Shown: positions 10,892-63,115, counted from the first letter of the stretch. The stretch: 64,000 nt of DNA from Tubiluchus corallicola (GCA_030141605.1 JAQGDQ010002373.1:29470-93469); one strand, 5' to 3'. A program made the numbers and translations. Notes: generated from the sequence alone by a model not told the origin.

Positions 10892-12060
10892 TAATAATCT
10901 TTATTGGCCATTAAAAACATTGATAATCACTGATAAAAACTTTACAGAGATAATCAATCAGTGTTAGTTAATAAAAACTTACACTGCTGAAGGCAAATGC
11001 GTCAGTGCAATCTAAACTACTGTGCAGTAATGGAAAGTAACGACGAATAAAATCAAACATATTTATAACTATGCATAAAAAAATAAAAAAAAACTATGAT
11101 TTAATTAATATGGCCGTGGGTATATGAATTCTGAATTAGTGTGTATGCTGTCGTACTGGTGTGATGGTATTTCATATCTGGTTAATATTAGTGATTTTAA
11201 TTTTGTTTTAAATGCTGATAGGGACTTGATTTGTTTAACCTGTAATGGTAGAGAATTCCAAAGTAAAATTGCTTGTTTTATTACAGAGTTCGTTCCATAG
11301 TGGGTATTTGTCCTAATTTGTTTTAGATTGCTTGTTCTGGAATTAACGATAGGATTTGGAAAAAAGTTAAATCTGTTATTCTGGAATGGTTTGCTGATGT
11401 TGTTAATGTATTTAAATATAAAAAGCAGAGTAAAATATTCTTTGTGTGCTTCAATGATTGGGAATTTTAAAGTTTTTCTCAGGTTAGTTGCTGAAGCTTT
11501 GAATTTTTGTCTACCTGCCTTATGTTTGTATGAGTACCCAGCTATCAATCTCAATGCATAGTTTTGAAGGAGATTTAATTTTAAGTAATTTTCTCTTTTG
11601 GTTTTTTGAAGTAGCGTACATCCATATAAGAAGTGTGGTAGAACTAAAGTTTTATATATTAGTGTTTTAGTTTCCTTTGTTAGTTGCCCTTTAACTTGCC
11701 GGAGATATGATGTGCTAGATGCCATTTTTGTGTATATGTTATTAAAGTGTTCATCCCATGAAAGATTATTGTCTACCTGTATGCCCAAGAATTTAACATT
11801 GTTAGTTTGTTTGATTACAGCATTATCTATTGTCAAAGTGGTTGATGATGCATCATTAGTATTTAATGAGGGTGACAGTATCATGGTTTCTGTTTTGTCA
11901 TTATTCATATTTAGCTTGTAATGATTAAATACCATATTTATATTTTTTATATCTTCTTCTAAATAATTTTTGCAGTTTGGACATTTTCATGGACATTTGG
12001 ACATTTGGCTATGTAGATTGTAATGTCATCAGCGTATTGCGTTATTTGTGAGTGTTTTAA
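10892..12060 (-). mobile_element. 5'-truncated CR1/L2-group LINE (family 1): reverse transcriptase C-terminus plus 3' UTR
   Basis: ORF 11105-11935 has LNMNNDKTE, VKFLGIQVDNNLSW, LIYKTLVLPHFLYG and LWNSLP; QYADD reads upstream at ~12025-12039 in a broken frame. Confidence 0.9.
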
Positions 12061-25070: not shown

Positions 25071-25550
25071 CTAGCTCGCTGCAAATGCCGCCATCTGACG
25101 GAAATCGACGCCCTTGTTGCGTTGCGTTTTAAATCCCTGCTTACACGACTTCTGGAGACGATCCCCGTGTCCCTTGGCTTTGTGCTCGTACAAGACGCAG
25201 ACCGATCCGTCCTCGCCGATGCGATAGCTCACCTCTCCCGGATCCACCCACAGAGTGAGTTCGTGGGGGAGGGCATGGTACAGGTAGTCGGGAGAAAGTC
25301 CACTTTCTTCACCGGCTCTGCCTATCATTGGGTCGAGTTTATGATTGATTCTCAGACACCTATAGCCGCTCCCGCGGAACGGTTTTTCGGGAAACCAGTG
25401 GTGCTTATAATGCTGACTTAGCAAGTCACGTAGAGTGGCCCCGAAAACGTCTAAAGTCACATCGTCCAAGAGCGGATTGTGCTTCCGAAGCAAATCTACA
25501 ATAAACCCCACTGCACACTTCAGTTCCAGCCTCATCTTCGGTTGAAACAT
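25071..25550 (-). CDS. BTG1: BTG/Tob antiproliferative protein, BTG1/BTG2 type, single coding exon, 159 aa
   Basis: Box [24 protein letters not shown], box [21 protein letters not shown], box [11 protein letters not shown]-terminal SCK; BTG1 vs BTG2 cannot be resolved. Confidence 0.95.
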
Positions 25551-25864
25551 GGGGACGGTTTAGAGGAACCACGTTTTAGATCACGATGAATGACTATCAC
25601 AAAATCTTTGGTACGTACTGCACGAATTCGCTGTTCCTTTATGCGGCTAAATGCTGCGCGGCGTTCATACAACGATGATTTCGATTCAGAAATTCTGCCG
25701 AACACTCCTCTCTTAACAACTTGCGACTCAAACTTGTTGGAAACAATTCTCTGTCGTTGCTCTGACTAGAGCGATTTAGAATAGACAACCTACGCCAGAT
25801 CGTTCTCTGCCTTTCTGTCCCTTTGTCCTCGGTCTGAGGTAAACAAGTTGGCAGGACGGCCTCA

Positions 25865-28374: not shown

Positions 28375-28549
28375 AATTTGTATTCGTCTTTTAATCGTTT
28401 GTAATTTGTATTCGTCTTTTAATCGTTTGTAATTTGTATTCGTCTTTTAATCGTTTGTAATTTGTATTCGTCTTTTAATCGTTTGTAATTTGTATTCGTC
28501 TTTTAATCGTTTGTAATTTGTATTCGACTTTTAATCTTTTGTAATTTGT
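28375..28549. repeat. 28-bp tandem repeat, about 6 copies
   Basis: Unit AATTTGTATTCGTCTTTTAATCGTTTGT. Confidence 0.9.
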
Positions 28550-28572
28550 ACATTTTGCAAATTCTCGTCCAT

Positions 28573-29152
28573 TTCAAAGCTTCAACAACTAACCTGAGAA
28601 AAACTTTAAAATTCCCAATCATTGAAGCACACAAAGAATATTTTACTCTGCTTTTTATATTTAAATACATTAATAACATCAGCAAAGCATTCCAGAATAA
28701 CAGATTTACCTTTTTTCCAAATCCTATCGTTAATTCCAGAACAAGTAATCTAAAACAAATTAGGACAAATACCCACTATGGAACGAACTCTGTAATCAAA
28801 CAAGCAATTCTACTTTGGAATTCTCTACCATTACAGGTTAAACAAATCAAGACCCTATCAGCATTTAAAACAAAATTAAAATCACTAATATTAACAAGTT
28901 ATAAAATACCATCACACCTGTACGACAATATACACACTAATTCAGAATTTGTATACACACGGCCATATTAATTAAATCATAGTTTTTTCATTTTTTTGTG
29001 CATAGTTGTAAATATGTTTGATTTTATTCGTCGTTACTTTCCATTACTGCACAGTAGTTTAGATTGCACTGACAAGTTTTTATTAACTAACACTGATTGA
29101 TCATCTCTGTAAAGTTTTTATCAATGTATTTTAATGGCAAATAAAGATTATT
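28573..29152 (+). mobile_element. LINE family 1, 3' end
   Basis: ORF 28546-28971 nearly identical to the end of ORF 11105-11935; ends in (TA)n. Confidence 0.9.
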
Positions 29153-30699: not shown

Positions 30700-31850
30700 A
30701 TAAACCTGCAAACTATAGGCCAGTTGCAATTACCAGTACTGTTGGCAAACTGCTTGAGAGCCATGTCGTTTCAATGTAATACTTGTCTATCTGAAATCTA
30801 ACAATTATTTGAAAAGATCTCAACAAAGGTTTCTCAAGAAATGGTCAGTGACAAGTAATTTACTAGAGTTTTTCGAATATGTATTTTCCACATTGGATCA
30901 CCGTAGCTCTTTTGTTTTAGTATAGCTAGACTTAGCAAAAACATTTGACAAAGTCCAACATAGAAGGTTACTGCTTACACTTGAGGCTTGTGGTGTTCAA
31001 GGGCAACTGCCTAACAGGATAAAAGCACGGCTAAGTGACAGATTTCCAATATGCCGAAGTTGAGGGTTGTGCCTCATCTACTGTCCCAGTTCTGTCAGGA
31101 GTGCCACAAGGAAGCGTCCTCCGACCCCTTTTATTTCTCATCTTTATAGATGATGTAAATGATAATGCAGTTAGTTGGCTACTCAAGTTTGCTGACGATA
31201 CCAAATTAGCATATCCAATATGTTCTTCTATGCAAGTGAGACAGCTTCAAGAAGACTTGCACCAAATCTGTGCATGGTCTGATAAATGGCAGATTGAATT
31301 CAATACACTTGATGGTAAATGCAAGGTGCATCATATGGGTAATCAGACCAATCCAACCACATACAGCTTTGGTGATGTCAATTTGCCTGTAGTCACTGAG
31401 GAGGTAGATCTTCGACTGTTAGTAGATAGCAAACTAAATTTTCACAGGCATGTGTCTAAGAAAATTAGTAAGAGTAACAGAATCCTTGAATTAACTTGTA
31501 GAACCATAACTTCCAGAAGAGCTGAGATAATTCTCCCACTACACAAATCTCTTGTTCATCCTCATCTTGAATACCTCAGTCAGGTATGGGACATTTATTA
31601 TGTCAAGGACATCCGTACTCTCGAGCAGGTGCAAGCATGAACTGTGGACATACTCGCAAAAACTGCAACAATTAGACCTGTATCGATTTTCTGCAAGAAG
31701 ACGTGGGGGGGGGAGACTTATTGAAGTGTTCAAGATTCTTAAGGGACTTACTGTCAGCAATGCAAACCAGTTTTTTACACTCAATAGAAGCATTACATGT
31801 GGTCATAGTGCTAAATTGTAAAAGCATAGAAACATTACTGAAAAGTATCC
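30700..31850 (+). mobile_element. Degenerate CR1 LINE reverse transcriptase
   Basis: NYRPVAITS, LDLAKTFDKV, SGVPQGSVL, KFADDTKL, LIEVFKIL, with stops and frameshifts. Confidence 0.9.
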
Positions 31851-33569: not shown

Positions 33570-33771
33570 ATGTCTTCCAACCGAGGTGAACTACAAAAAC
33601 GCAGACAAGGAAAGCCATTAAGCAGGCTTCGATTGAGAAGGGGGCAATGTAACGTCAGTCGGCTCAAGCCTTGTTTGCAGTTCGATGAAAGCGATCTGAA
33701 CCAAGATCAGTTTTTGTCGTGCACTCCATATGATGAAGGAAACTTATCATCGTCCATCTGTACTAGTCCTG
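33570..33771 (+). CDS. EIF2AK1: HRI-like eIF2-alpha kinase, coding exon 1 (phase-1 donor)
   Basis: ATG at 33570; QFDESD resembles the HRI N-terminal (Y/F)DESD; splices in frame to 35805; donor G|GTATAA is weak. Confidence 0.7.
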
Positions 33772-35804: not shown

Positions 35805-36019
35805 CTCTGGATTTCCAGGAACGACCTGATTTGGCCGCTACAACTGCGTTAGCTAATGAAGATCATGTTAAAGCAGTCCACGCAGTTGATGCTATGTTTG
35901 AGCCATCGTATCTATTCATGGCAGCGCTCATTGAGCATCTGTGTACGCTGTACGGTGGAGACGAGGATGCATCACAGAGCCTGTTTCATGTAGTATGGCA
36001 CAAGCTTGTTGAAATGAGG
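35805..36019 (+). CDS. EIF2AK1: HRI-like kinase exon 2
   Basis: PSYLFMAALIEHLC...SLF...KLVEM matches the HRI N-terminal domain (LLLVSLLEHL...VF...FIKM); AG/GT borders. Confidence 0.88.
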
Positions 36020-36877: not shown

Positions 36878-37065
36878 GTTGTGTCTCGCTGTTATACTGT
36901 AGAGCATCTGAATCGATTTCGGCACGTTTATCGGAGTCCGTTCGAATTTCTGCTGCTGAGTGCTAAAGAACATGTTTTAAAAAATCACAAGATTATACTG
37001 CATCCTTCGCTTAGCAGTGGCGACAAAGCAAGGCTTTTGTTGCAGCCCCAAATCAACAATTTCAG
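36878..37065 (+). CDS. EIF2AK1: HRI-like kinase exon 3
   Basis: VVSRCYTVEHLNRFRHVYRSPFEFLLLSAK; splice phases fit both neighbours. Confidence 0.85.
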
Positions 37066-37697: not shown

Positions 37698-37803
37698 GTT
37701 GCCAAGCTGGAATTTGGAATACACGTTTGACTTGACGCGTTACCTGAATGAATTTATTGAACTGGAACAAATTGGCAAAGGTGGATTTGGTTTTGTTTAC
37801 AAG
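37698..37803 (+). CDS. EIF2AK1: HRI-like kinase exon 4 (subdomain I)
   Basis: TRYLNEFIELEQIGKGGFGFVYK. Confidence 0.92.
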
Positions 37804-37827: not shown

Positions 37828-38180
37828 TAAAAACTCATATAGTAAGTTCTTTCGTGTTTCTATTGTTATATAAAACTCACATTGTAAGGCCTTTCTTGTT
37901 TCTATTGTTCTATAAAACTCACATTGTAAGGCCTTTCTTGTTTCTCTTGTTCTATAAAACTCACATTGTGAGTTCTTTCTCGTTTATATTGTTCTATAAA
38001 ACTCACATTGTAAGGCCTTTCTTGTTTCTATTGTTCTATAAAACTCACATTGTAAGGCCTTTCTTGTTTCTATTGTTCTATAAAACTCACATTGTAAGGC
38101 CTTTCTTGTTTCTATTGTTCTATAAAACTCACATTGTAAGACCTTTCTTGTTTCTATTGTTCTATAAAACTCACATTGTA
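37828..38180. repeat. 42-bp tandem repeat, about 8 copies, at the start of HRI intron 4
   Basis: Unit TATAAAACTCACATTGTAAGGCCTTTCTTGTTTCTATTGTTC. Confidence 0.95.
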
Positions 38181-38529
38181 CTCGATTCGAATCCAAAACT
38201 ATAGATTCGAATAATTCAGCACTTCAATCACATATGTTCCTGATCATTAAATCGATTGAAACATCATGCAATTAGCATAATTTAGCTGTGATTTCTGTGC
38301 ACAACTTTAAAGAAATTACTAGTCGTTTTATTGCAGAACAAAATCTAGTAATATGCATGATCTTTGTAAGACTAATTTTTACTGGTGGTTCGAAAACTTG
38401 TTTGAAAATCGTTCAATCTCAATTCGAATTCGGTTCGAATTCGAAACACCGGAGTTCGGTTCGATTCGAATCAGAAAGTCGCAAATTTGTTTCGATTCGA
38501 ATTCGCTTTCTGGTAGAGAATGCTCACCC
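38180..38529. mobile_element. MITE family C, left end missing
   Basis: Matches ~32156-32480. Confidence 0.85.
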
Positions 38530-38653
38530 GCACTTTTTAAGGTTGTGATATATGACCATCATGAAATTAAATGTACTTTTTCTATTGTCTGCATAATCCT
38601 GCTGAGTTTTTAAAGAAGCATCCAGGTATTATATCCACTAACTATTTCAACAG

Positions 38654-38789
38654 GCACGAAATCGACTGGATAACAATGAGTATGCGGTAAAGAAAGTGCT
38701 TTTTCCAAAGAATTTTACTCAGTGCAAAATAGCAAAGATAATGCGAGAAGTTACGCTACTTGCAAAGCTACGTCATGATAACGTAGTTG
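38654..38789 (+). CDS. EIF2AK1: HRI-like kinase exon 5 (subdomains II-IV)
   Basis: ARNRLDNNEYAVKKV...MREVTLLAKLRHDNVV(G); CAG acceptor, GTATGT donor. Confidence 0.93.
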
Positions 38790-39580
38790 GTATGTGGAGA
38801 TTTTTAATACAAAATTGTTTATATATTGTAAGAAAAGACATAAACTGTACCAAAAACTGATTATAAAAATACACAAAAACACACTGTCGTACATGCGAGC
38901 ATTTAATTTACAGTTTATTAATAATTTTGATTTGTAGTTTTAAACTTTTTGTTTTTCACTACCACTAAGTCAGTGCTGACATCTGTTTGTACACTTGGAA
39001 GTTTCCAATATATGTATGTACTTGCTACTGCTATATGTTTGTATGGAACTGGGTCACTGGGCTTCTCTGTAAATGTAGTAGTTTTTCACACTTGGTAGCA
39101 TGATGAGAGGACAGGCATGGGTTTAAACAGTTGTTTGGTTATAATAACGTTTGTGACTCAGGTGCCATGATATATTGGCTGATGGATTTATAACTTTTGT
39201 TTACTACTGTTGATTATGTTTACCATTTTCGTTTATATGTGGATTGACTATGAGACTATGATTTTGAGTAAAATACAGATCGTAAAGTTAAACCATGTTT
39301 TCATCCAGTGATTTCATCTGTTTAACAAGAACATCGAAACTTCAAAAACAGTCTGATAAACCTGCCAATGTCGGTTGTTAGCTCTCCCCAAAACACCCCA
39401 GCGACAACTTTAGCGTCACGACACACACTGTCAAACCTTTTTATACTGCCCACTTTTCCTAGCCATTTTGCAGGCTGTAAAAGAATTTGGCGTAATAACA
39501 GGAGGGGCATTATTACGACGTTTGTCTGTATTTCATTTTTAGCACAAGAAAGATTAACGAAATCGTCAAATTTGTTTTGG

Positions 39581-41414
39581 GGTTACCATCCAGCTTGGCT
39601 GGAATGTGGTTATCATGCCGCAATCTCTACAAGTAGTGAAAATTCTGGAACCTTCCAGAAGTTTACTGTAATGATCTTAATGCTATATTCTGTGTTTTTT
39701 TCTAGGTTATCATTCAGCTTGGCTGGAATGTGGTTGCCATCCAGCAATCTCTACAAGTAGTGAAAATTCTGGAACCTCCCAGAAGTTTACTGTTATGATC
39801 TTAATGCTATGTTGTGTGTTTTTCTCTAGGTTATCATTCAGCTTGGCTGGAATGTGGTTGCCATCCAGCAATCTCTACAAGTAGTGAAAATTCTGGAACC
39901 TCCCAGAAGTTTACTGTTATGATCTTAATGCTATGTTGTGTGTTTTTCTCTAGGTTATCATTCAGCTTGGCTGGAATGTGGTTACCACCCGGCAATCTCT
40001 ACAAGTAGTGAAAATTCTGGAACCTCCCAGAAGTTTACTGTTATGATCTTAATGCTATGTTGTGTGTTTCTCTAGGTTATCATTCAGCTTGGCTGGAATG
40101 TGGTTACCACCGCAATCTCTACAAGTATGAAAATTCTGAACCTCCCAGAAGTTACTGTATGATCTTAATGCTATGTTGTGTTTTCTCAGGTTATCATTCA
40201 GCTTGGCTGAATGTGGTTACCATCCAGCAATCTCTACAAGTAGTGAAAATCTGGAACTCCTAAAGTTTACTGTTATGATCTTAATGCTATGTTTTGTTTT
40301 CTCTAGGTTATCATTCAGCTTGGCTGGAATGTGGTTACCACCCAATCTCTACAAGTAGTGAAAATTCTGGAACCTCCCAGAAACAACAACACCGGTACCA
40401 CCGCAACTCTACAAGTAGTAAAATTCTGGAACCTCAAGTTTACTGTTATGATCTTGCTATTTTGTTTTTCTAGGTTAATTCGCTTCTGGTTTACACCGCA
40501 ATCTACAAGAGTGAAAATTCTAACCTCCCAGTTTACTGTTATGATCTTAATGCTATTTTGTGTTTTTCTCTAGGTTATCATTCAGCTTGGCTGGAATGTG
40601 GTTACCATCCAGCAATCTCTACAAGTAGTGAAAATTCTGGAACCACCTAGAAGTTTACTGTTATGATCTTAATGCTATGTTGTGTGTTTTTCTCTAGGTT
40701 ATCATTCAGCTTGGCTGGAATGTGGTTACCACCCGGCAATCTCTACAAGTAGTGAAAATTCTGGAACCTCCCAGAAGTTTACTGTTATGATCTTAATGCT
40801 ATGTTGTGTGTTTTTCTCTAGGTTATCATTCAGCTTGGCTGGAATGTGGTTACCATCCAGCAATCTCTACAAGTAGTGAAAATTCTGGAACCTCCTAGAA
40901 GTTTACTGTTATGATCTTAATGCTATGTTGTGTGTTTTTCTCTAGGTTATCATTCAGCTTGGCTGGAATGTGGTTACCACCCGGCAATCTCTACAAGTAG
41001 TGAAAATTCTGGAACCTCCCAGAAGTTTACTGTAATGATCTTAATGCTATGTCGTGTGTTTTTCTCTAGGTTATCATTCAGCTTGGCTGGAATGTGGTTA
41101 CCATCCAGCAATCTCTACAAGTAGTGAAAATTCTGGAACCTCCTAGAAGTTTACTGTTATGATCTTAATGCTATGTTCTATGTTTTTCTCTAGGTTATCA
41201 TTCAGCTTGGCTGGAATGTGGTTACCATCCAGCAATCTCTACAAGTAGTGAAAATTGTGGAACCTTCCAGAAGTTTACTGTAATGATCTTAATGCTATGT
41301 TCTGTGTTTTTCTCTAGGTTACCATCCAGCAACTTCTACAAGTAGTGAAAATTCTGGAACCTCCTAGAAGTTTACTGTTATGATCTTAATGCTATGTTCT
41401 GTGTTTTTCTCTAG
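39581..41414 (+). repeat. 124-bp tandem array (~16 units) built from the intron 5 acceptor and the start of HRI exon 6
   Basis: Unit begins GTTATCATTCAGCTTGGCTGGAATGTGG and ends TTTTTCTCTAG; period of 124 checked in the clean copies. Confidence 0.95.
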
Positions 41415-43039
41415 GTTATCATTCAGCTTGGCTGGAATGTGGTTACCATCCGGCAAGCTCTTCCAGCAGTGAAAATTCTGGAACCTCCCATAAGTCTTTC
41501 TCTAATGATCTTGGTGCTAATGGTGCATCTTCTATAATAAAGCTTAACAGAGTTGTTCGTGATGATGACGACAGTCAAGTTGTATTTAGCGATGAAATCT
41601 CCCAGAAGTATAATGTTTCGCAGCATTTTTCTAACACGACCCAACCAAAATGTGCTGTGTATGAGTCGGACACATCATCTGGCGACTGTTCCCAATCTCG
41701 CATGGTTGAAACTACCTCTCACGGTATAGAAACAGGAGCAAATATACCACAAGTAAAAAAGGACTGTGTCACTAGTAACGAAGCCAAAATTGAGTCTGCC
41801 AACAGCTGTACAGCATCTGGTGATGCTAACAAAGGCACTTGCATTTTAAGAGAGGGTTTGAACAATCAAGAAGCGAAGCTCACGCCCATCGAACGCATCA
41901 GGCACAAGTCTAAAAGTCATGATTCCGTGCAAAATCAAGATACAAAAGATAAGATGTTACCAGTGGCTGTTGGTTTTCATCGTAGTGCTAGTCTACAGAC
42001 AGAACCATCCGCCAGAGTGAGCATCTGGAAGCGACAGTGGTCAGATAATGCAACAATCGATCGAGTTCGAGTCATCTTGTTCATACAGATGCAGTTGTGT
42101 AACAGTACCTTGAAGGATGCATTACATCTGAGGAACAGTGAGATCACTGCCAACTGTGATAATTGCACTGTTGTCAATAGTCAAAGATTTCTCTCTATAT
42201 TTCAGCAAATTATTAAAGGAGTGTGTTACATCCATGATCAGGGACTTGTCCATCGAGATTTGAAACCAGGCAATGTATTTCTGCAGGAAGATGATCATGT
42301 CTTGATTGGTGACTTTGGCCTAGCCCGAGACACGTTTCAAGAAGGACCTCAAACGAAAAGAAGTTACAGCTTACCGTCCGAAATGTTGACAACGGATGTT
42401 GGGACGTCACTGTATGCATCTCCAGAACAGTTGAGTAACAGCGACTACAACTACAAGTCTGATATATTCAGTCTTGGCATAATTCTTTTTGAAATGTTTC
42501 AGCCTTTCGGTACAGAGATGGAACGAGTTAAAACATTAATGAATGTTCGCGAGAGCAACATACCTCGTGAGTTCTCGGATAAATGGCCACAGATAGCGCA
42601 CCACGTCAAATCAATGGTAAATGTGGACGCAACAAGCAGGCCATCGGCAGATGAGATCTTACACAGTGAACTATTCATTAGCAAAGATCAAATCATTCAA
42701 TCTCTGAAAGCAAAAATACACCGCTTGCAGGACGTTCATCGCGAAAAAGATGTGATTATTGCAACTAAGAATTCTCAAATAGCTGCTCTTCGTGCCAAAC
42801 TGGGGACAACTGCCAAAGAAAATGATCAGAAGATGCGTGTACTGGAGAAACAATTGTGCGAACGAGGTAGAAAATATAAAAAACAGCGTAATGAACAAAT
42901 GCGGCAGCATGCAAAAGAGCTAAGCTTGATGAAGCACTCTTATGAGAAGCAGCTAGACGAACAAAGAGAAATCATCAATGATTTATTGAAGAAGCAAAGT
43001 AACCTCGAAGCAGCTCAGAAAAATAGGCCAGAGTCGTAA
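41415..43039 (+). CDS. EIF2AK1: HRI-like kinase terminal exon 6 (kinase insert, subdomains V-XI, C-terminal coiled coil)
   Basis: GYHSAWLE, long insert, LFIQMQLC, HRDLKPGN, IGDFGLA, VGTSLYASPEQ, FGTEMER; six exons total 2472 nt = 823 aa plus stop. Confidence 0.95.
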
Positions 43040-43093
43040 CATCTTGTAGAATGAAATTTGCCAACTACTTTTTACGCTATCTGACTATAAGGA

Positions 43094-43408
43094 AAGTGAA
43101 AGCAGAAAGCTTGAGCCAGTTTATCTCAGTTAAAGTTGAAACGTACTAAGTCAAGTTTGCAACTTTTGCTTGTGGAAGCTAAAGAAGTAAATAGTGGCTG
43201 TGTTCTAGACAAAAGCATATTACACTGAAGTTTCGTCAAAATATTTATTGTACTTCAAAAGTACCTCAGTGTAATATGCTTTTGTCTAGAACACAGCCAC
43301 TATTTTCTTCTCTAGCTTCCACAAGTACTCGAGCAAAAGTTGCAAACCTGACTTAGTATGTTTCAACTTTAACTAAGATAAACTGGCTCAAGCTTTCTGC
43401 TTTCACTT
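43094..43408. repeat. Long inverted repeat (~135-bp arms, ~34-nt loop) just after the HRI stop codon
   Basis: 43094-43230 vs 43264-43408, about 6 substitutions and one 8-nt indel. Confidence 0.95.
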
Positions 43409-43916
43409 AATCAAAATTCCTGCACCATATTTTTGAAGGTATTTTGGAATTTTACTATCATCTCCTCCTCGATAGCAAGTCCTTACTTAATGGCGTTAAT
43501 GCATTCCAGCAAAATGTGGTATTAAGTGAAATATTGTTAAATAAAACCATGCCTTGCTTAGGGTGCAATGTGAACAGGTGGGACGCTGTACATTCCAAAA
43601 CCAAAACTCGTGAATGTTTTTATTGAAATCAATTTTTTTGTGCGTTTCATTGCTTGGATTTTTGCATTAATTTGTTTTCTAAAAGGTAAAATAATTACTT
43701 ATATTAATGGCATTGCAGTAGGTACAGTTTGCTGACCCTATGTAAAATAACAACTACAGCAATTTTATAAGCCAGTAAAAAAATTACCAGATAAGTTCTT
43801 GTGTGCATTGCTTGGGTCTAATGATCTCTTTCCAGCATTAAATGATCTTAAAATGTTTGATTTTATGTGTAAAGTTATAGATTGTCTCTTCTGTTTTACT
43901 ACAGGGAAACATGAGT

Positions 43917-47431: not shown

Positions 47432-47932
47432 TCATCTAGCTTTTATAGCATAAGCTTTAGTAACTTGATTCATAGCTGTCAAAGCTAACATGGCTACTAC
47501 TGCCAAGCAGGAATATACTACACTTTGTGGTACCTTCTGAGTAAACCAAGCAGACAGCATACCTAACGACACGGTTACCATTCCGCACAGAAAGACTATC
47601 AGTCCCGAAGTTGCATGGAACATCTTCAGTTTGGCACGCGTTATCAATTTTGCAGTAAACGAAGGATACAGTTTTGTATTAATTCCACCAATAACTTGGA
47701 TTGTAAAATAGCAGACGGTTATTGCACCCATCGTACCATGCCAGCTGGTGAAGTGTGCCCTACCCAACCTTTCTTTGTTAAAGTATACGCATGCGGAGCC
47801 AATCAGAGCGCACGTTAGAGCTATGAATTGTAGAAAGCCATGCAGTGTAATTTTGGTTGCTCGATCCTTGGCTGGAATCAATGAGCTCTCAGGAGAGAAC
47901 ACCAAAATAGCTTGAACCACGAAGAAAGCGAA
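47432..47932 (-). CDS. CYB561D2: Cytochrome b561 domain-containing protein, coding exon 3
   Basis: AILVFSPESSL, LHGFLQ, AHFTSWHG, KLKMFHATSGL, AMNQVTKAY; TAG acceptor; three exons total 606 nt = 201 aa plus stop. Confidence 0.93.
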   Translation of the reverse strand, partial: FAFFVVQAILVFSPESSLIPAKDRATKITLHGFLQFIALTCALIGSACVYFNKERLGRAHFTSWHGTMGAITVCYFTIQVIGGINTKLYPSFTAKLITRAKLKMFHATSGLIVFLCGMVTVSLGMLSAWFTQKVPQSVVYSCLAVVAMLALTAMNQVTKAYAIKAR

Positions 47933-56713: not shown

Positions 56714-57399
56714 CTAGCAAAGGCCCCGCAAAAAATTTTGCTTATAAATACGCGTATAATCAACAATGCACGAACGTCTTACCTAGTGTTTGTTTACTTA
56801 CCTAACGCAAAGCCAGCAGCAATTAAAGCTATAAGTTTATAAGCTGAGTTTAATGGATGACGTCAGAACAATGGCTTTGCGTCAGCAGTTTTCCAAGTGA
56901 AAATTGCCGAAAATAGAACATCTAATTAACTCGTCGGCACTCCACTTGGTGGACGTGTTCTAACATATAGCCCAGATCATCGTGTAGCCCTGTTCTTCCT
57001 CGTTCTAAAGAAATCTTATATAAATCTTATATATATATTGTTCGGAAGATTTCTCTCTGCTTGGCCTTTAATCTAAAGTTGTACTTATTTAGAATTGCCT
57101 GTAAAACTTGGCTTCGTTATATGCATTTAGTAGGTCAACCAATCAGAATTGAGCACGTTTTTTAGTCTACTCATTGGAAGCGAAGAAATCGCCACGTATT
57201 TGATTTGTTCTGTAATATTGAATTTAAAATAAAAGTTTTTGGGATTTACTTCAAAACAACTGGTAGCAGAGAGTAGTTACGCAGTGAAACTCGTCTGCGG
57301 TAATTTATGCTGTGAAACTCGTCTGCAGTAAATATCGTTATCGTATTCGTCGTACTACATGTATCGGGTTTCATTTGACTTCATCGTATCGCCATAGCC

Positions 57400-60300
57400 A
57401 TGAGTCAGCAGCAACAATCGGCTGGAAAGGATAACGACGGGGTACGTAGCGCTAAAATTATCAACACTAGTCGGCAGGAGTTAAAAGCAGAAAAAGCTAG
57501 CGCCAAATCTGCACTTACGAAGTTAAAAAATAAACTACTGCAATTAATCTGTCAAGAAGTCCACCAGGACGAATGGGAAACACGTCAGAACATTTTAGAT
57601 TTATTTGATAAGATAGACGAGGCGCAAAGTAGAGCAATGTCGGTAGTGGAGAATTTACTGGAAAATTACCTGACAGATGAGACAGGGGGTCAAAAGATAG
57701 AAGAATGCATAGACGAGGTCATTGACGAATTGGAGAAGTTGTCTGACGAGTACGCGACAGTATACAGTAAAGCACAGGCCTACCTGCAAACCTTAAAACT
57801 GGGACATGGAGGCGGATCTACTGCTACAGCAAGGGCGTCAGCAAACATCGAATCTGACAACATGCATTCACCATGGGCTACGCCACCTGCAAAACCTCTC
57901 GGGAGTGATATCCCTACAACGTCTGCTACTGAACATTATAACGTAAAAGCTGAACTATACGAGGAAGCTCACTTCGATTCTGAGCAGCGAGAATTTAGCA
58001 ACACATCATGGACCCGCCATCAACCAGCTGATCGGTACAACACAGCAGCTACCGTGCAGCGTGAGGACGTTTCCATAGGTGTTGATATGTGGAGGCAATT
58101 AAAGAGAGTTTCCATCCCGGTTTTTAATGGAGACAAAAAGAGCTACGAAAATTGGAAAGCAGCGTTTTGTGCTTGTATAGATTCAGCGCCAGCGACAGCA
58201 GAGTATAAACTTTTGCAACTTAGACAGTATTTATCCGGTGAGGCGTTGAAGGTCATTGAGAATTTGGGACATTCGGCAGTTGCATACCAAGCTGCTAAAG
58301 AGAGATTAGATAGAAAATATGGCGGTCGTCGACGACAGGTGGCGCTGCAATTAGAAGAACTGGAAAGATTTAGGCCAATTCGAACTGAGCACGCTAAAGA
58401 AATAGAAAAATTCGCGGATTTATTGGACTTGACCGTAGTAAATTTACAAGAGGCTGGTCGACACGAAGAATTAGGTAATGGATCACTTTACGCAAAATTA
58501 AAGAAGAAAATGCCAGAAAGCATGCTGGCTCAATTCCAGCGTTGGTTATTCGAGAAACGTCGGGCAGAAAATGTTATTTCGCTAAGAGAATGGATAATTC
58601 GCGAGGCAGAGTTTTACACAATAGCACACGAGACAGTTTATGGTTTAGGGGCCAGCAATTTGGACACAAAACCAAAACCGAGATCGTACTTTGGGACAAC
58701 AGGTGATAACCAAGAAGCTGCAGTTTCCAGAAGTAGTCAATCACAAAGATTATGCAAAGTTTGCAATGGGCCTCACGGTGTTTGGAGGTGTGATGAGTTT
58801 CGCAAGATGAGCATTCCACAAAGATGGGACTCTGCAAAGCGGTTGAACTTATGCTATCGCTGTCTGGGGTCAGATCACCAAGGTCAAACCTGTCCACGTA
58901 GCAGAGTTTGTGGCATAGACAGCTGCAAATACAATCATAACAGATTTCTACATTCGTCAAAAGAAGTTAGAGAAAATAATTCGCATTTAGCCGCGACCAA
59001 CAAGAACTACAACAATGCTGTTGGTTCTACACCGTCATCAATCAAACCTGCAGCTGAAGATGGTTCATCGCATCGCAGTAGCACATCGACCATACCACCT
59101 GACAAACAAAATTCGGCTGTGACAATGACATCTGGCAATCCCAAGATAGTTGAAAAAATTATGTTGCGAACTATACCAATAATCGTGAAAAATGGAAATC
59201 GTAAATTGACAATCAACGCATTATTAGATGATGCCAGCACAAGATCGTACATCAACTCGGATGTAGCAGCAGAGTTAGGACTTGAGGGTGAGACTCAGCA
59301 GATTAACGTCAACGTTTTAAATGGGCAAACAAAAGTTTTCGAAACAAGACCTGTAACATTTAATCTACAGAGTGTCAACGGCCAGCTGGACATGAAATTC
59401 AGCGCATTAACGGCTGAAAGAGTTACCGGAAATTTGAATGTAATAAACTGGAATGAATGCAGTCACAAGTGGGACCATTTGAAAGCTATTGAATTTCCAA
59501 AACTAGGACGTCGCCTCATCGTAGACATGTTGATTGGCAGCGATTACACCGATTTACATTATTCGTACAGAGATGTTCGTGGAAAGCCAGGGGAGCCAAT
59601 AGCTAGATTAACTCCACTCGGATGGACATGTATAGGACAACCAAATGATTGCGACAGTTATCGTGTTCGCACCAATTTCGTTCACACGTATTTTTCGGCT
59701 GAAGCTAGTGAAATTCGGCTTGATGAGATGTTGCAACAATTTTGGCAGATAGATTCAGCTGGCACGATGCCAAGTTGCCGCATTCTGGATATTGATGCAG
59801 AGAACGCTTTAGCTAAAGTAGAGAAATCCATGAAAATGACGGATGGACATTATGAGGTTTGCATACCATGGAAAGATAATTCAGTTGAGCTGCCTAGTGC
59901 GAAATTGAGCTACGAAAAGGCACTGAAAAGACTACAGAGCACCGAAAAACGTCTACTAAAAAATCCAGAAGTGGCAAAAATATACGAAGATAATATTCAG
60001 CAGTATGTGAAGAAAGGCTACATACGTCAAGTGACATCATTAGAAGATCAGCAATGCGGACGATGGTTTTTACCCCATTTTCCAATAATCAGACCAGATA
60101 GAGAGACAACAAAAGTACGCATGGTGTTTGATTCGTCAGAAGAATGCGATGGAGTCTCGCTGAATGATGTCATTAGTCCCGGACCAAAGCTGCAGAGAGA
60201 TTTATTCGATGTCTTGCTTCGTTTTCGTAAAAATCCTGTAGCATTGGTATCGGACATTGCAGATATGTACTTGATGATTAAAATTGTTCCTGAGGACAGG

Positions 60301-62094
60301 GTTTACCATAGATTTCTCTGGAGGAATTTCGAAAACAGACAGCCTGACCAATATGAATTCGAAAGGGTCGTTTTTGGGGTAAATGCATCACCATTTCTTG
60401 CACAATTTGTGACGCGGAAGCATGCAGAAAAATTTCAATTGCAGTATCCAATGGCTACAGAAACCATACTCTACTCGACGTATATGGACGATAGCATGGA
60501 TTCAGCCATCGACGATGAACAAGGCATAGAGCTCTACAGTCAGTTGTCCGGTCTTTGGGAAAAGGCTGGCATGCGAGCTCGTAAATGGTTATCAAATTCA
60601 CCTGTAGTGTTAGCCGAGATACCACAAGAGGAGAGAGCATCAGAAATTAACTTAGATGAAGGACTTCTTCCGAGTATAAAAACACTTGGAGTACTGTGGC
60701 TGGCAAAGGAAGATGTTTTCACCTTCAAACCAAAATCCATGGACATCGACAATTTCTTATTTACCAAGCGTAATATACTGAGGAAGTTCGCTACAATATT
60801 TGATCCATTGGGATTTCTGGCAGCATTTCTCGTTCGAGGGAAAATTATCATGCAGGAAATGTGGACAGCCGGTTTAGGATGGGACGACGAGCTTGACGAA
60901 AACTTGCAATGGAAAGCCAAAATGTGGTTTACAGAATTGATCGAGATGCCAGAAATTCATATTCCGAGATGTTTGGTCACGGAGGGGGGTACAGATTCAT
61001 GCACACTGCACACATTCGTAGATGCATCGCAAGAAGCCTATGCAGCAGTTAGCTATCTACGTTGTACCTATCCTGATGGAACTATATCGTGTCGACTCAT
61101 CGCAGCAAAGTCTCGTGTAGCCCCTCTGATTGCAATTAGTATTCCACGACTAGAAATGATGGCTGCAATACTGGGGCTAAGGCTTACGGACCACATAGCT
61201 GGTGCACTAAACATGGAACTAAAAAATGCAATTTTTTGGTGTGATAGTATGAACGTTTTATGGTGGATAAGGAGTAGAAGTCGCACACTGAAACCGTTCA
61301 TCGCTAATCGTATAGGCGAAATTCAGAGTCAAACATTTCCACATCAATGGCGGCATGTCACATCAAAAGAGAATGCTGCTGATGCTGTGACTAGAGGGAA
61401 AACTGCAAATCAACTTATTAATGATGAAAAATGGTGGAGAGGACCGAAATTCCTTCACAAGAACGAGCAAGAATGGCCATCTAAAATTATAGAATTTCAG
61501 CAAATGGATGACGCAGAACTTAGAAAGCCAACAAAAATTAGACATGTATCTAATCGTGAAACTGCTGAAACTTACATTACTGGACCAATACAAAACCAGG
61601 ATGACAATTGGCGTCTAAAACCTGAGCGGTTTTCCAGTTGGTTACGACTGATTCGAGTACAAGCATGGGTACATCGTTTTCTAGAAAACTGTCGTGATTC
61701 AAAACTGCACAAGAAGTTTGGAGAATTAGAGCCAGACGAATTGCAAGACGTTGAGATAAGCATTGTACGAAACATGCAACGTGAAGCCTTTTCACTGGAA
61801 TACAAATTACTCCAGAATAACCAACAGTTGCCGAAGAATAGCAATTTATTAAAGCTGCAACCTAGATTAGACGAGGATGGAGTTATTCGCAGCGAAGGAC
61901 GTCTCATTCACGCAGAATACTTATCGTACGATGCACGCCATCCGATCATTCTGCCTAAGAATAACTGGGTAACCAAGTTGATAATTGGACATCATCATGA
62001 AAAAGCTCATCATGCAATAGGGGTGAATCAGACTCTTGCTTCACTGTCAGCTCGATATTGGGATCTCTGGCAGGGAAGAAATCAGAAAATTTGA
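57400..62094 (+). CDS. BEL/Pao gag-pol polyprotein (Gag Cys/His knuckles, protease, reverse transcriptase, RNase H)
   Basis: Three Cys/His knuckles, ALLDDAS, FLPHFPI, YMDD, FDPLG, LHTFVDAS, IPRLE, WCDS, ENAAD. Confidence 0.93.
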   Translation: MSQQQQSAGKDNDGVRSAKIINTSRQELKAEKASAKSALTKLKNKLLQLICQEVHQDEWETRQNILDLFDKIDEAQSRAMSVVENLLENYLTDETGGQKIEECIDEVIDELEKLSDEYATVYSKAQAYLQTLKLGHGGGSTATARASANIESDNMHSPWATPPAKPLGSDIPTTSATEHYNVKAELYEEAHFDSEQREFSNTSWTRHQPADRYNTAATVQREDVSIGVDMWRQLKRVSIPVFNGDKKSYENWKAAFCACIDSAPATAEYKLLQLRQYLSGEALKVIENLGHSAVAYQAAKERLDRKYGGRRRQVALQLEELERFRPIRTEHAKEIEKFADLLDLTVVNLQEAGRHEELGNGSLYAKLKKKMPESMLAQFQRWLFEKRRAENVISLREWIIREAEFYTIAHETVYGLGASNLDTKPKPRSYFGTTGDNQEAAVSRSSQSQRLCKVCNGPHGVWRCDEFRKMSIPQRWDSAKRLNLCYRCLGSDHQGQTCPRSRVCGIDSCKYNHNRFLHSSKEVRENNSHLAATNKNYNNAVGSTPSSIKPAAEDGSSHRSSTSTIPPDKQNSAVTMTSGNPKIVEKIMLRTIPIIVKNGNRKLTINALLDDASTRSYINSDVAAELGLEGETQQINVNVLNGQTKVFETRPVTFNLQSVNGQLDMKFSALTAERVTGNLNVINWNECSHKWDHLKAIEFPKLGRRLIVDMLIGSDYTDLHYSYRDVRGKPGEPIARLTPLGWTCIGQPNDCDSYRVRTNFVHTYFSAEASEIRLDEMLQQFWQIDSAGTMPSCRILDIDAENALAKVEKSMKMTDGHYEVCIPWKDNSVELPSAKLSYEKALKRLQSTEKRLLKNPEVAKIYEDNIQQYVKKGYIRQVTSLEDQQCGRWFLPHFPIIRPDRETTKVRMVFDSSEECDGVSLNDVISPGPKLQRDLFDVLLRFRKNPVALVSDIADMYLMIKIVPEDRVYHRFLWRNFENRQPDQYEFERVVFGVNASPFLAQFVTRKHAEKFQLQYPMATETILYSTYMDDSMDSAIDDEQGIELYSQLSGLWEKAGMRARKWLSNSPVVLAEIPQEERASEINLDEGLLPSIKTLGVLWLAKEDVFTFKPKSMDIDNFLFTKRNILRKFATIFDPLGFLAAFLVRGKIIMQEMWTAGLGWDDELDENLQWKAKMWFTELIEMPEIHIPRCLVTEGGTDSCTLHTFVDASQEAYAAVSYLRCTYPDGTISCRLIAAKSRVAPLIAISIPRLEMMAAILGLRLTDHIAGALNMELKNAIFWCDSMNVLWWIRSRSRTLKPFIANRIGEIQSQTFPHQWRHVTSKENAADAVTRGKTANQLINDEKWWRGPKFLHKNEQEWPSKIIEFQQMDDAELRKPTKIRHVSNRETAETYITGPIQNQDDNWRLKPERFSSWLRLIRVQAWVHRFLENCRDSKLHKKFGELEPDELQDVEISIVRNMQREAFSLEYKLLQNNQQLPKNSNLLKLQPRLDEDGVIRSEGRLIHAEYLSYDARHPIILPKNNWVTKLIIGHHHEKAHHAIGVNQTLASLSARYWDLWQGRNQKI

Positions 62095-63115
62095 GAAAGA
62101 ATGTGCAAAATGCCGTCAGCAGAAAGCTCAAACTGCAACGCAAGTGATGGCACCAATTCCAGAGATCAGAGTGAAACTGCCTTTACGAGCTTTTGCTAGG
62201 ACAGCAGTGGATTTTGCTGGACCTTCTATTACAGTTCAAGGAAGAGGAAAACGTCGACAGAAACGCTATCTTTGCCTCTTCACTTGTATGACATCGCGGG
62301 CAGTGCATTTAGAGATAGCCTTTGGCCTTGACACTGATTCGTACTTAAACGCCTTTTATCGCATGGTCAATCGCAGAGGTTTGCCAACTGAGATGCTTTC
62401 TGACAACGGTTTAAACTTCGTAGGAGCGAACAATGAACTACAAAGTCTATTAGCGAAATTAGACGAAGAGAAGATTCAACGGACATCTGCAAACCAAGGT
62501 ATCAAGTGGCATTTTAACCCACCATTAGCACCACATTTTGGAGGAGCCTATGAAATAATGGTAAAAGCCGCAAAACGAGCCATATTCGCTATTCTCGGAA
62601 ACGCTGACGTCACGGATGAAGAACTCATGACAGCATTTACCGGAGCAGAAGCACTATTAAATTCGAGACCATTGACGTACCAAACAGCAGATGAGAAAGA
62701 TGACATTCCCTTGACGCCAAACCATTTTTTATTTGGGCAAGTTGGTGGACAATTCGCGCCCGAATCAGTGGATAACACAGACTTTAATCCTAGAAAGCGT
62801 TGGAGGCGTGTCCAAGAATTAATACGTCACTTTTGGAAAAGATGGATGCGAGAGTGGCTTCCAGGACTCAACAGACGCAGTAAATGGAATCGTGTGCAGA
62901 GAGACATTCAAGTAAACGACATCGTACTTGTTATATCTCCAAATACACCTAGGGGACAGTGGCCTATGGGACGCATACTAGAAGTCTACCCTGGTAGCGA
63001 CGGGCACACTCGAGTTGCAAAACTGAAGATTGGCAATAGTGAACTTGCACGACCAATCACCAAACTCTGTCCACTGGAGTTCATTGAGGAAGAGAAACCC
63101 GACAATCAAAAGTGA
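62036..63115 (+). CDS. BEL/Pao integrase, continuing the polyprotein after a frameshift near 62060
   Basis: CAKC, VDFAGP, RAVHLE, SDNGLNF, GGAYE, LNSRPL, LTPNHFL, RPITKLCPL. Confidence 0.92.
   Translation: MLHCQLDIGISGREEIRKFEKECAKCRQQKAQTATQVMAPIPEIRVKLPLRAFARTAVDFAGPSITVQGRGKRRQKRYLCLFTCMTSRAVHLEIAFGLDTDSYLNAFYRMVNRRGLPTEMLSDNGLNFVGANNELQSLLAKLDEEKIQRTSANQGIKWHFNPPLAPHFGGAYEIMVKAAKRAIFAILGNADVTDEELMTAFTGAEALLNSRPLTYQTADEKDDIPLTPNHFLFGQVGGQFAPESVDNTDFNPRKRWRRVQELIRHFWKRWMREWLPGLNRRSKWNRVQRDIQVNDIVLVISPNTPRGQWPMGRILEVYPGSDGHTRVAKLKIGNSELARPITKLCPLEFIEEEKPDNQK

What the first reader, a model, noticed from the sequence alone, without database searches (positions are those of the whole stretch)
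39581..41470. HRI splice acceptor and exon start amplified ~14 times; each unit parses as an in-frame 51-nt microexon plus a 73-nt intron
Seen: the only acceptor leading into the open kinase frame is at 41415 (TTTTTCTCTAG|GTTATCATTCAGCTTGG, GYHSAWLE). Nearly identical acceptors precede it at 39706, 39830, 39954, 40076, 40190, 40307, 40474, 40574, 40698, 40822, 40946, 41070, 41194 and 41318. The unit is 124 nt, so reading through from an upstream acceptor meets a stop in the next unit (...SSNLYK*) and loses the catalytic lobe. The repeats carry ACAA|GTAGTG where the true exon has CCAGCAGTG, giving a GT exactly 51 nt after each AG. The other 73 nt run GT...CTTAAT (branch-like)...T-rich tract...TAG. 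The one cleanly shortened unit (41318) lost 27 nt, leaving 24 nt, still frame-preserving. Inference: either the spliceosome skips 14 equivalent acceptors, or the array is a cassette of symmetric phase-1 microexons adding 0-N copies of xYHSAWLECGYHPAIST at the start of the kinase insert. That would be intron/exon gain by tandem duplication in progress, or a tunable route to truncated kinase. The CAA|GTAGTG donor is a weak match to consensus.
Basis: partly seen in the sequence, partly recalled or inferred. Interest (0 to 1): 0.85.

Follow-up and report, generated by a model that had tools for sequence, protein, structure and literature searches.

The report
Splice-acceptor "mirage" repeat in HRI gene
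The start of the last coding exon of a stress-sensing kinase gene (HRI), likely from a priapulid worm, is copied about 15 times just in front of itself, a repeat type already known from lancelets as a "mirage"; the cell likely splices at the last copy, which is untested, and the branch-point-like part of that splice site is recycled coding sequence.

Summary
The array is real: 15 units at 39582-41414, 14 upstream AG acceptors at the listed coordinates, and only 41415 opens into the 541-codon kinase frame. Depth in one DNA run fits about 15 copies or more, so it is not an assembly expansion. The microexon reading is weak. The supposed 73-nt intron is itself a copy of the exon up to about unit base 104. 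The GT is a silent AGC>AGT change, in frame because it lies in an xGT codon. CAA|GTAGTG lacks both -1G and +5G, while 5 of 5 real donors of this gene have -1G. The 27-nt loss matches an internal 27-nt repeat. A relative's protein (P0001) has one copy of the motif. No RNA run of this species was available, so splicing is untested. The structure matches lancelet "mirages" (PMC3087553), and this scan has noted such arrays in other genomes. One twist: the working acceptor's branch-point region is exon-derived and the first unit has no AG. Best reading: last acceptor used, upstream copies mostly silent (0.72). New member of a known kind; interest 0.27.

The parts
33570..33771 (+). HRI (EIF2AK1-like) coding exon 1; donor CTG|GTATAA
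   Evidence: tblastn with P0001; GT-AG model
35805..36019 (+). exon 2; donor AGG|GTAATT
36878..37065 (+). exon 3; donor CAG|GTAATC
37698..37803 (+). exon 4 (start of kinase N-lobe); donor AAG|GTATCG
38654..38789 (+). exon 5, ends in phase 1 within the Gly codon of VVG; donor TTG|GTATGT
   Evidence: 94% identical to P0001 over 47 aa
38790..39581 (+). non-array part of intron 5, mostly two high-copy dispersed repeats (about 38860-39150 and 39160-39500)
   Evidence: summed contig depth 1e4-1e5 against 178 on exon 5 in run X1
39520..39542 (+). acceptor-like pyrimidine tract plus TAG, 39 nt (in frame) before the first unit; use unknown
   Evidence: sequence; 15 of 20 pyrimidines; read-through stops at 39758
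39582..39705 (+). first, most diverged unit; preceded by GGG, no acceptor
   Evidence: 8-12 differences from the other eight full units, which differ by 0-7 among themselves
39706..40075 (+). three acceptor-bearing units (124, 124, 122 nt)
40076..40573 (+). four parsed units (114, 117, 167, 100 nt) riddled with small deletions, likely assembly error; the 167-nt one looks like two fused units
   Evidence: 35 indel events, 3 mismatches
40574..41317 (+). six full 124-nt acceptor-bearing units
41318..41414 (+). last unit, 97 nt, lacking the first 27 nt; its 3' end is the acceptor of the real exon (TTAAT at -26, 16 of 20 pyrimidines, TAG)
   Evidence: branch region homologous to exon bases 83-105
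41415..43039 (+). exon 6: end of N-lobe, kinase insert, C-lobe and tail, 541 codons to stop; template of the repeat unit (first ~105 nt shown, up to 123-126 nt possible)
   Evidence: 74% identical to P0001 over 539 aa

Best explanation
This is a tandem array of about 15 copies of the start of HRI exon 6, all but the first preceded by a splice-acceptor sequence, and the spliceosome likely joins exon 5 mostly to the last acceptor at 41415, so that the upstream copies would be removed as intron and the kinase would be normal. Shown: the array, its derivation from the exon up to unit base 104, stops behind all 14 upstream acceptors, and an intact exon 6. Inferred: (1) the array arose by local duplication and grew by unequal exchange, with interior units homogenised and the first unit left to decay; (2) the last acceptor wins because only it is followed by the full terminal exon and poly(A) signal, while upstream copies have no strong donor to define them as exons; (3) the duplication separated the working AG from its old branch region, so exon-derived sequence now supplies it. 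Whether the last 20 nt (pyrimidine tract and AG) come from the old intron end or also from the exon is unresolved.
For: Only 41415 gives an open frame, and that exon is 74% identical to a relative's protein with no stop, so the gene appears to need this junction. P0001, from an unnamed 2,629-nt contig that encodes all 824 aa and so is probably a spliced transcript, has one copy of the motif. All 5 real donors have -1G and +3A; no GT in a unit has both. Interior homogenisation with a divergent edge unit is what PMC3087553 section 16 reports for BflGb6, where RT-PCR suggested normal splicing. PMC3902484 says the Adh and TnC mirages give no aberrant mRNA (passage). In CBS 844ins68 the more distal of two duplicated sites is strongly favoured (PMC2630376, passages). 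F7 IVS7 pseudo-donors are functional yet normally silent (PMC1557585, abstract).
Against: No transcript of this species was seen, and P0001 comes from another species whose intron is unknown. The last acceptor's upstream 32 nt are identical to those of 41318, so nothing in the acceptor itself marks it, and the selecting feature is inferred. RNA folding shows no distinguishing structure (z -0.88 and -0.25). The F7 paper argues for 5'-to-3' scanning of donors; if acceptors here were scanned likewise, the first copy would be favoured.
Confidence: 0.72

Rival explanations
1. Upstream acceptors are used at an appreciable, perhaps regulated, rate with no second splice. The mRNA then stops 16-62 codons later and yields HRI lacking the C-lobe, or is degraded; array length would tune the dose of active kinase.
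For: 14 acceptors nearly identical to the working one, with 16 of 20 pyrimidines against 10-12 at the gene's other four acceptors. Exon 6 appears terminal (AATAAA at 43540), so junction-dependent NMD would not apply (inference).
Against: Lancelet mirages are reported not to disturb splicing, and the distal site is favoured in CBS. An intact, conserved exon 6 implies that most transcripts reach it.
Confidence: 0.12
2. One reading: units splice as 51-nt phase-1 microexons through CAA|GTAGTG, adding 0-N copies of a 17-residue peptide at the start of the kinase insert.
For: A GT lies 51 nt after the AG in 9 of 14 acceptor-bearing units and the C>T that makes it is present in 14 of 15 units. The 51 nt are stop-free, and the kinase insert varies freely among homologues.
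Against: The donor has neither -1G nor +5G and fits neither AG//GU nor //GURAG (PMC11732430 passages). It matches 5 of 9 consensus letters, as do or exceed 84 of 333 background GTs in this gene's introns. In-frame GTs are a by-product of xGT codons (6 of 9 GTs in a unit). The 27-nt loss equals an internal repeat spacing. The gene's other four introns are 632-2,033 nt. P0001 has one motif copy.
Confidence: 0.07
3. Stepwise removal: exon 5 is first joined to an upstream acceptor, and the AG|GT junction is then reused as a donor (regenerated TTG|GTTATC, or the next TAG|GTTATC) to reach 41415, as in recursive splicing.
For: All 14 upstream junctions read AG|GT. TAG|GTTATC belongs to the AG//GU class and is the only GT in the unit with AG in front.
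Against: The regenerated donor matches only 4 of 9 consensus letters. The intron is 2.6 kb, far shorter than the introns in which recursive sites are described (recalled). Using the next unit's TAG|GT would leave 124 nt and shift the frame.
Confidence: 0.06
4. The array is largely an assembly expansion of one or two copies.
For: Four middle units are full of indels, and no listed piece spans the array.
Against: Three unit contigs in run X1 have depth 1,265-1,521 against 175-193 on single-copy exons, ratios of 6.9-8.4, where the assembly predicts 5.1-6.9. X1 may be the source sample, and the tool warns that depth is no copy number.
Confidence: 0.03

Closest known systems
Lancelet 'mirage' minisatellites, above all globin BflGb6 (PMC3087553, passages and section 16 read; PMC3902484, one passage read)
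   Same: Tandem copies of an intron end plus exon start lying in front of the real exon. Unit of similar size (150-160 nt in BflGb6, 124 here). Most but not all copies keep a splice signal, the interior is homogenised and the edge unit diverges. The paper already proposes that a unit could be recruited as an exon.
   Different: Likely a priapulid, not a lancelet. About 15 units against 3-6. At most about 20 nt of the unit can be original intron, so the working acceptor's branch region is exon-derived. Normal splicing is supported by RT-PCR there and untested here.
Human CBS 844ins68 (PMC2630376, passages read)
   Same: A duplicated intron/exon junction in which the distal site is used and the upstream exon copy is discarded, giving normal mRNA.
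   Different: One 68-bp duplication, a polymorphism with experimental proof; here 14 spare acceptors.
Human F7 IVS7 37-bp VNTR (PMC1557585, abstract and outline read)
   Same: A minisatellite spanning an exon boundary makes a row of identical splice sites, of which only the one next to the true exon is normally used.
   Different: Donor side, with the authentic site first; here acceptor side, with the authentic site last.
Intron gain by tandem genomic duplication and by intronization (review PMC3443670, passages read)
   Same: Duplicated exon sequence has become intron, and the unit junctions read AG|GT.
   Different: No new intron is shown: the donor of intron 5 lies 790 nt upstream in unrelated sequence, so this extends an intron and may have replaced its acceptor.

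Membership tests
Mirage minisatellite | Head-to-tail copies spanning an intron/exon boundary, next to the real exon | tested here: met
   15 units at 39582-41414 abutting exon 6
Mirage minisatellite | Many but not all units keep the splice signal | tested here: met
   14 of 15 units have YAG in front; the first has GGG
Mirage minisatellite | Concerted evolution inside, edge unit excluded | tested here: met
   first unit 8-12 differences, the other eight full units 0-7; six shorter or damaged units left out
Mirage minisatellite | Unit contains a piece of the original intron end | tested here: inconclusive
   bases 1-104 are exon-derived; the last 20 nt are not significantly exon-like (874 and 1,585 of 10,000 shuffles), and no older copy is detectable upstream (2,868 of 5,000)
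Mirage minisatellite | Length varies between haplotypes or individuals | not testable with these tools
   only contigs, none spanning the array
Mirage minisatellite | Normal mRNA splicing is preserved | not testable with these tools
   no transcript of this species was examined; P0001 is from another species
Symmetric microexon cassette | Frame-preserving, stop-free short exon | tested here: met
   51 nt in 9 of 14 units and 24 nt in one, but expected from xGT codons
Symmetric microexon cassette | Donor of a recognised class (AG//GU or //GURAG) | tested here: not met
   CAA|GTAGTG has neither -1G nor +5G; 5 of 5 real donors have -1G
Symmetric microexon cassette | Inclusion seen in transcripts | not testable with these tools
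   no RNA of this species examined
Intron gain by tandem genomic duplication | Donor and acceptor of the intron both come from the duplicated AGGT | tested here: not met
   the donor at 38790 lies outside the array and no unit copy maps there
Recursive splice sites | Acceptor AG directly followed by GT | tested here: met
   all 14 upstream junctions
Recursive splice sites | Strong regenerated donor | tested here: not met
   TTG|GTTATC, 4 of 9 consensus letters (consensus recalled)
HRI / EIF2AK1 kinases (host gene) | Split kinase domain with a long insert; best named hits are EIF2AK1 | tested here: met
   most named hits among the 120 listed are EIF2AK1 or EIF2AK1-like; groups with P0001 and Priapulus HRI at SH-aLRT 99 in a quick tree of 22 rows

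The most novel reading that the evidence does not exclude
The array is a working cassette made entirely of recycled coding sequence: an in-frame duplication of the exon's first 123-126 nt forged a new acceptor, the old one was lost, and the units now splice as 51-nt microexons that add a countable number of 17-residue repeats to the HRI kinase insert. (The first half alone, an acceptor wholly forged from exon sequence, is about 0.4 likely and of moderate interest.)
Probability: 0.06. Interest if true: 0.8.

Novelty: new member of a known kind. Interest (0 to 1): 0.27.

Why it matters
As a silent mirage it extends a known lancelet repeat type to a likely priapulid. It also offers a natural test of acceptor choice: 15 near-identical sites, one open frame, and fixed marker bases that tell repeat from exon in any read. 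The exon-derived branch region shows that a working 3' splice site can be partly rebuilt from coding sequence, which bears on how splice sites turn over. It would matter much more if RNA showed a 51-nt ladder, since that would be exon birth by minisatellite inside a stress kinase.

Tried and rejected
No whole genome is held for the window, so no genome-wide splice-site model or survey of other arrays was possible. Run search: 6 runs, no RNA holder listed; this says nothing on expression. Run X3 (kind unknown, other sample) covers 22 of 30 bins of 41319-43100 but shows no cover on the array units or exon 5; with no joint across, this is not used as evidence. X5 and X6 laid only on dispersed repeats. 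X1 contigs also lack the exon-type start (about 41426-41536) and 39510-39559, so holes prove nothing, and the GGG before the first unit could not be checked against reads. No joints were listed on 41319-43100; the 15 joints shown of 125 on 38210-39705 are all in dispersed repeats. A protein search with the unit peptide among longer proteins found 1 candidate and none at E<=10; it did not return P0001 either, so it is too weak to count. The search among shorter proteins gave one distant hit. HMMER over 1.84 billion representatives gave only P0001 as a credible relative, among 3 hits. Metagenome scans found nothing. RNA folding of a decoy and of the real junction was no better than shuffles. An older unit tail upstream of the array is not significant. 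Selection for a new branch point is not shown: the exon already has CTAAT at +88 and +103, both lost in the units, and the excess divergence of bases 82-104 over 1-80 is borderline (5 of 23 against 6 of 80, p=0.065); the p=0.0003 assumes the last 20 nt are exon-derived. The Pfam scan failed on a frame slip and was not repeated. The careful tree did not finish. The paper search on priapulid, EIF2AK1 and intron listed 8 of 238 papers holding two terms, none of the 8 about this locus; the VNTR-acceptor search found 0. The original Adh3 mirage paper and the CBS splicing experiments were not read, only as cited; supplements of PMC3087553 (unit alignments) were not opened and may show exon-derived acceptors.

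Full report
Host gene. The window is animal DNA with no whole genome held. Exon 6 (41415-43039) encodes 541 codons whose named hits are mostly HRI/EIF2AK1 kinases. The closest relative is an unnamed 824-aa protein, P0001, from a 2,629-nt contig, 74% identical over 539 aa. With it a six-exon GT-AG model of 823 aa was built, identical at 635 of 828 columns. A quick tree of 22 rows groups the window protein with P0001 and Priapulus HRI (SH-aLRT 99; long branch, careful search unfinished), so the organism is likely a priapulid or kin.

Observation. No other copy lies in the window. Reading on from each of the 14 upstream acceptors meets a stop after 1-62 codons; only 41415 is open. The GT lies 51 nt after the AG in 9 of 14 units. 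The first unit has GGG in front. Four units at 40076-40573 carry 35 indel events but 3 mismatches, while nine full units carry no indel; I read this as assembly error (inference).

Is it real DNA? In run X1, single-copy exons have depth 175-193, and three unit contigs have 1,265-1,521. Taking the assembled units that fit those contigs' listed differences (their letters were not shown), the assembly predicts mean 31-mer counts of 5.1-6.9; the observed ratios are 6.9-8.4. That fits about 15 intact units or a few more and argues against an assembly expansion. Caveats: X1 may be the source sample, depth is no exact copy number, and no piece spans the array.

What the unit is made of. Alignment shows that the unit is collinear with the exon well past the GT: 74 of 80 matches over bases 1-80 and 18 of 23 over bases 82-104 (3 of 10,000 dinucleotide shuffles as good). 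P0001 keeps the matching peptide (KSFSNGLGANGVSSII against KSFSNDLGANGASSII), so the coding state is ancestral. The branch-like TTAAT at -26 of the working acceptor corresponds to TTGGT in the exon. The last 20 nt are not significantly exon-like (874 and 1,585 of 10,000). Two origins remain: a short old intron end plus about 105 nt of exon (an ordinary mirage), or a pure in-frame 123-126-nt exon duplication in which the AG arose anew. Selection for a branch point is not shown, since the exon already had two CTAAT motifs that the units lost.

The microexon idea. The GT is a silent AGC>AGT change. Because the unit starts in phase 1, every xGT codon yields an in-frame GT: 6 of 9 GTs in a unit sit at offsets divisible by 3. 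The 27-nt loss in the last unit equals the spacing of an internal repeat (11 of 16 letters alike), so it needs no selection for frame. All 5 real donors of the gene have -1G and +3A. CAA|GTAGTG has neither -1G nor +5G and so fits neither major donor class described in PMC11732430 (passages). Its 5 of 9 consensus matches (consensus recalled) are equalled or beaten by 84 of 333 background GTs; in fairness, 2 of the 5 real donors also score 5. P0001 has one motif copy, but that species' intron is unknown. No RNA of this species could be examined, so the idea is unsupported, not refuted.

Mechanism. Most likely (0.72) exon 5 joins 41415 and the array leaves with the intron. The conserved, stop-free exon 6 needs that junction. 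Upstream copies lack a strong donor, and the last acceptor alone precedes the full terminal exon and an AATAAA at 43540; that this decides the choice is inferred. Nothing in the acceptor itself or in RNA folding marks the last copy. Rivals: appreciable upstream use giving truncated kinase (0.12), microexons (0.07), stepwise removal through the AG|GT junctions (0.06) and artefact (0.03).

Comparison with what is known. PMC3087553 (passages and section 16) describes 'mirages': tandem copies of an intron end plus exon start, with many but not all units keeping splice signals, interior homogenisation, a divergent edge unit, normal splicing by RT-PCR, and a model in which a unit becomes an exon. 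Three of these features are met here (first unit 8-12 differences against 0-7); splicing and length variation were not testable. PMC3902484 (one passage) lists Adh, TnC and PGBD5 cases. CBS 844ins68 (PMC2630376, passages) and the F7 VNTR (PMC1557585, abstract) show silent duplicate sites in humans; PMC2812944 (section 6) reports 27 repeat-driven intron changes. It is not classical intron gain by AGGT duplication (PMC3443670, passages), because the donor lies outside the array. This scan's notes hold 8 similar arrays in at least 5 genomes (unchecked). A look-up for exon-forged acceptors found 0 notes with all the words, and a paper search listed 7 papers on related intron-gain routes, seen only as a listing.

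Verdict. Real, and a new member of a known kind. The exon-derived branch region is a modest twist. Interest 0.27; a 51-nt ladder in RNA would raise it to about 0.8 but is about 0.06 likely.

Noticed in passing
window 39520-39581: An acceptor-like tract ending TTTTTAG at 39542 lies 39 nt, in frame, before the AG-less first unit; reading on from it stops at 39758.
   Followed up: partly
window 41414-41457: The exon start holds an internal 27-nt repeat (GYHS...GYHP), also present in P0001; the first unit looks as if its two halves exchanged bases.
   Followed up: partly
window 41536-41541: An AATAAA hexamer lies inside exon 6 at the place corresponding to the unit end; possibly chance.
   Followed up: no
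window 38210-38560 and 38860-39500: Very high-copy dispersed repeats in introns 4 and 5 (summed depth up to 1.6e6 and 1.8e5 against 178 in run X1).
   Followed up: no
window 37830-38180: A 42-nt tandem array of 8.4 copies starts 27 nt after the exon 4 donor.
   Followed up: no
window 41486-41633, 42637-43100: Run X3 differs from the window in exon 6 by six listed substitutions (four change the residue) and a 3-nt in-frame insertion at 41558: another population or a close species.
   Followed up: partly
window 57379-63115 (+): Two long ORFs (1,571 and 362 aa) that look like the gag-pol and integrase of a BEL/Pao-type LTR retrotransposon, broken by a frame change near 62030-62090 (label recalled, not tested).
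   Followed up: no
window 25071-25559 (-) and 47432-47932 (-): ORFs resembling a BTG/Tob protein and a cytochrome b561-domain protein (labels recalled, not tested).
   Followed up: no
window 11105-11986, 28507-28971, 31035-31640: Fragments resembling non-LTR retrotransposon ORF2 ends (label recalled, not tested).
   Followed up: no
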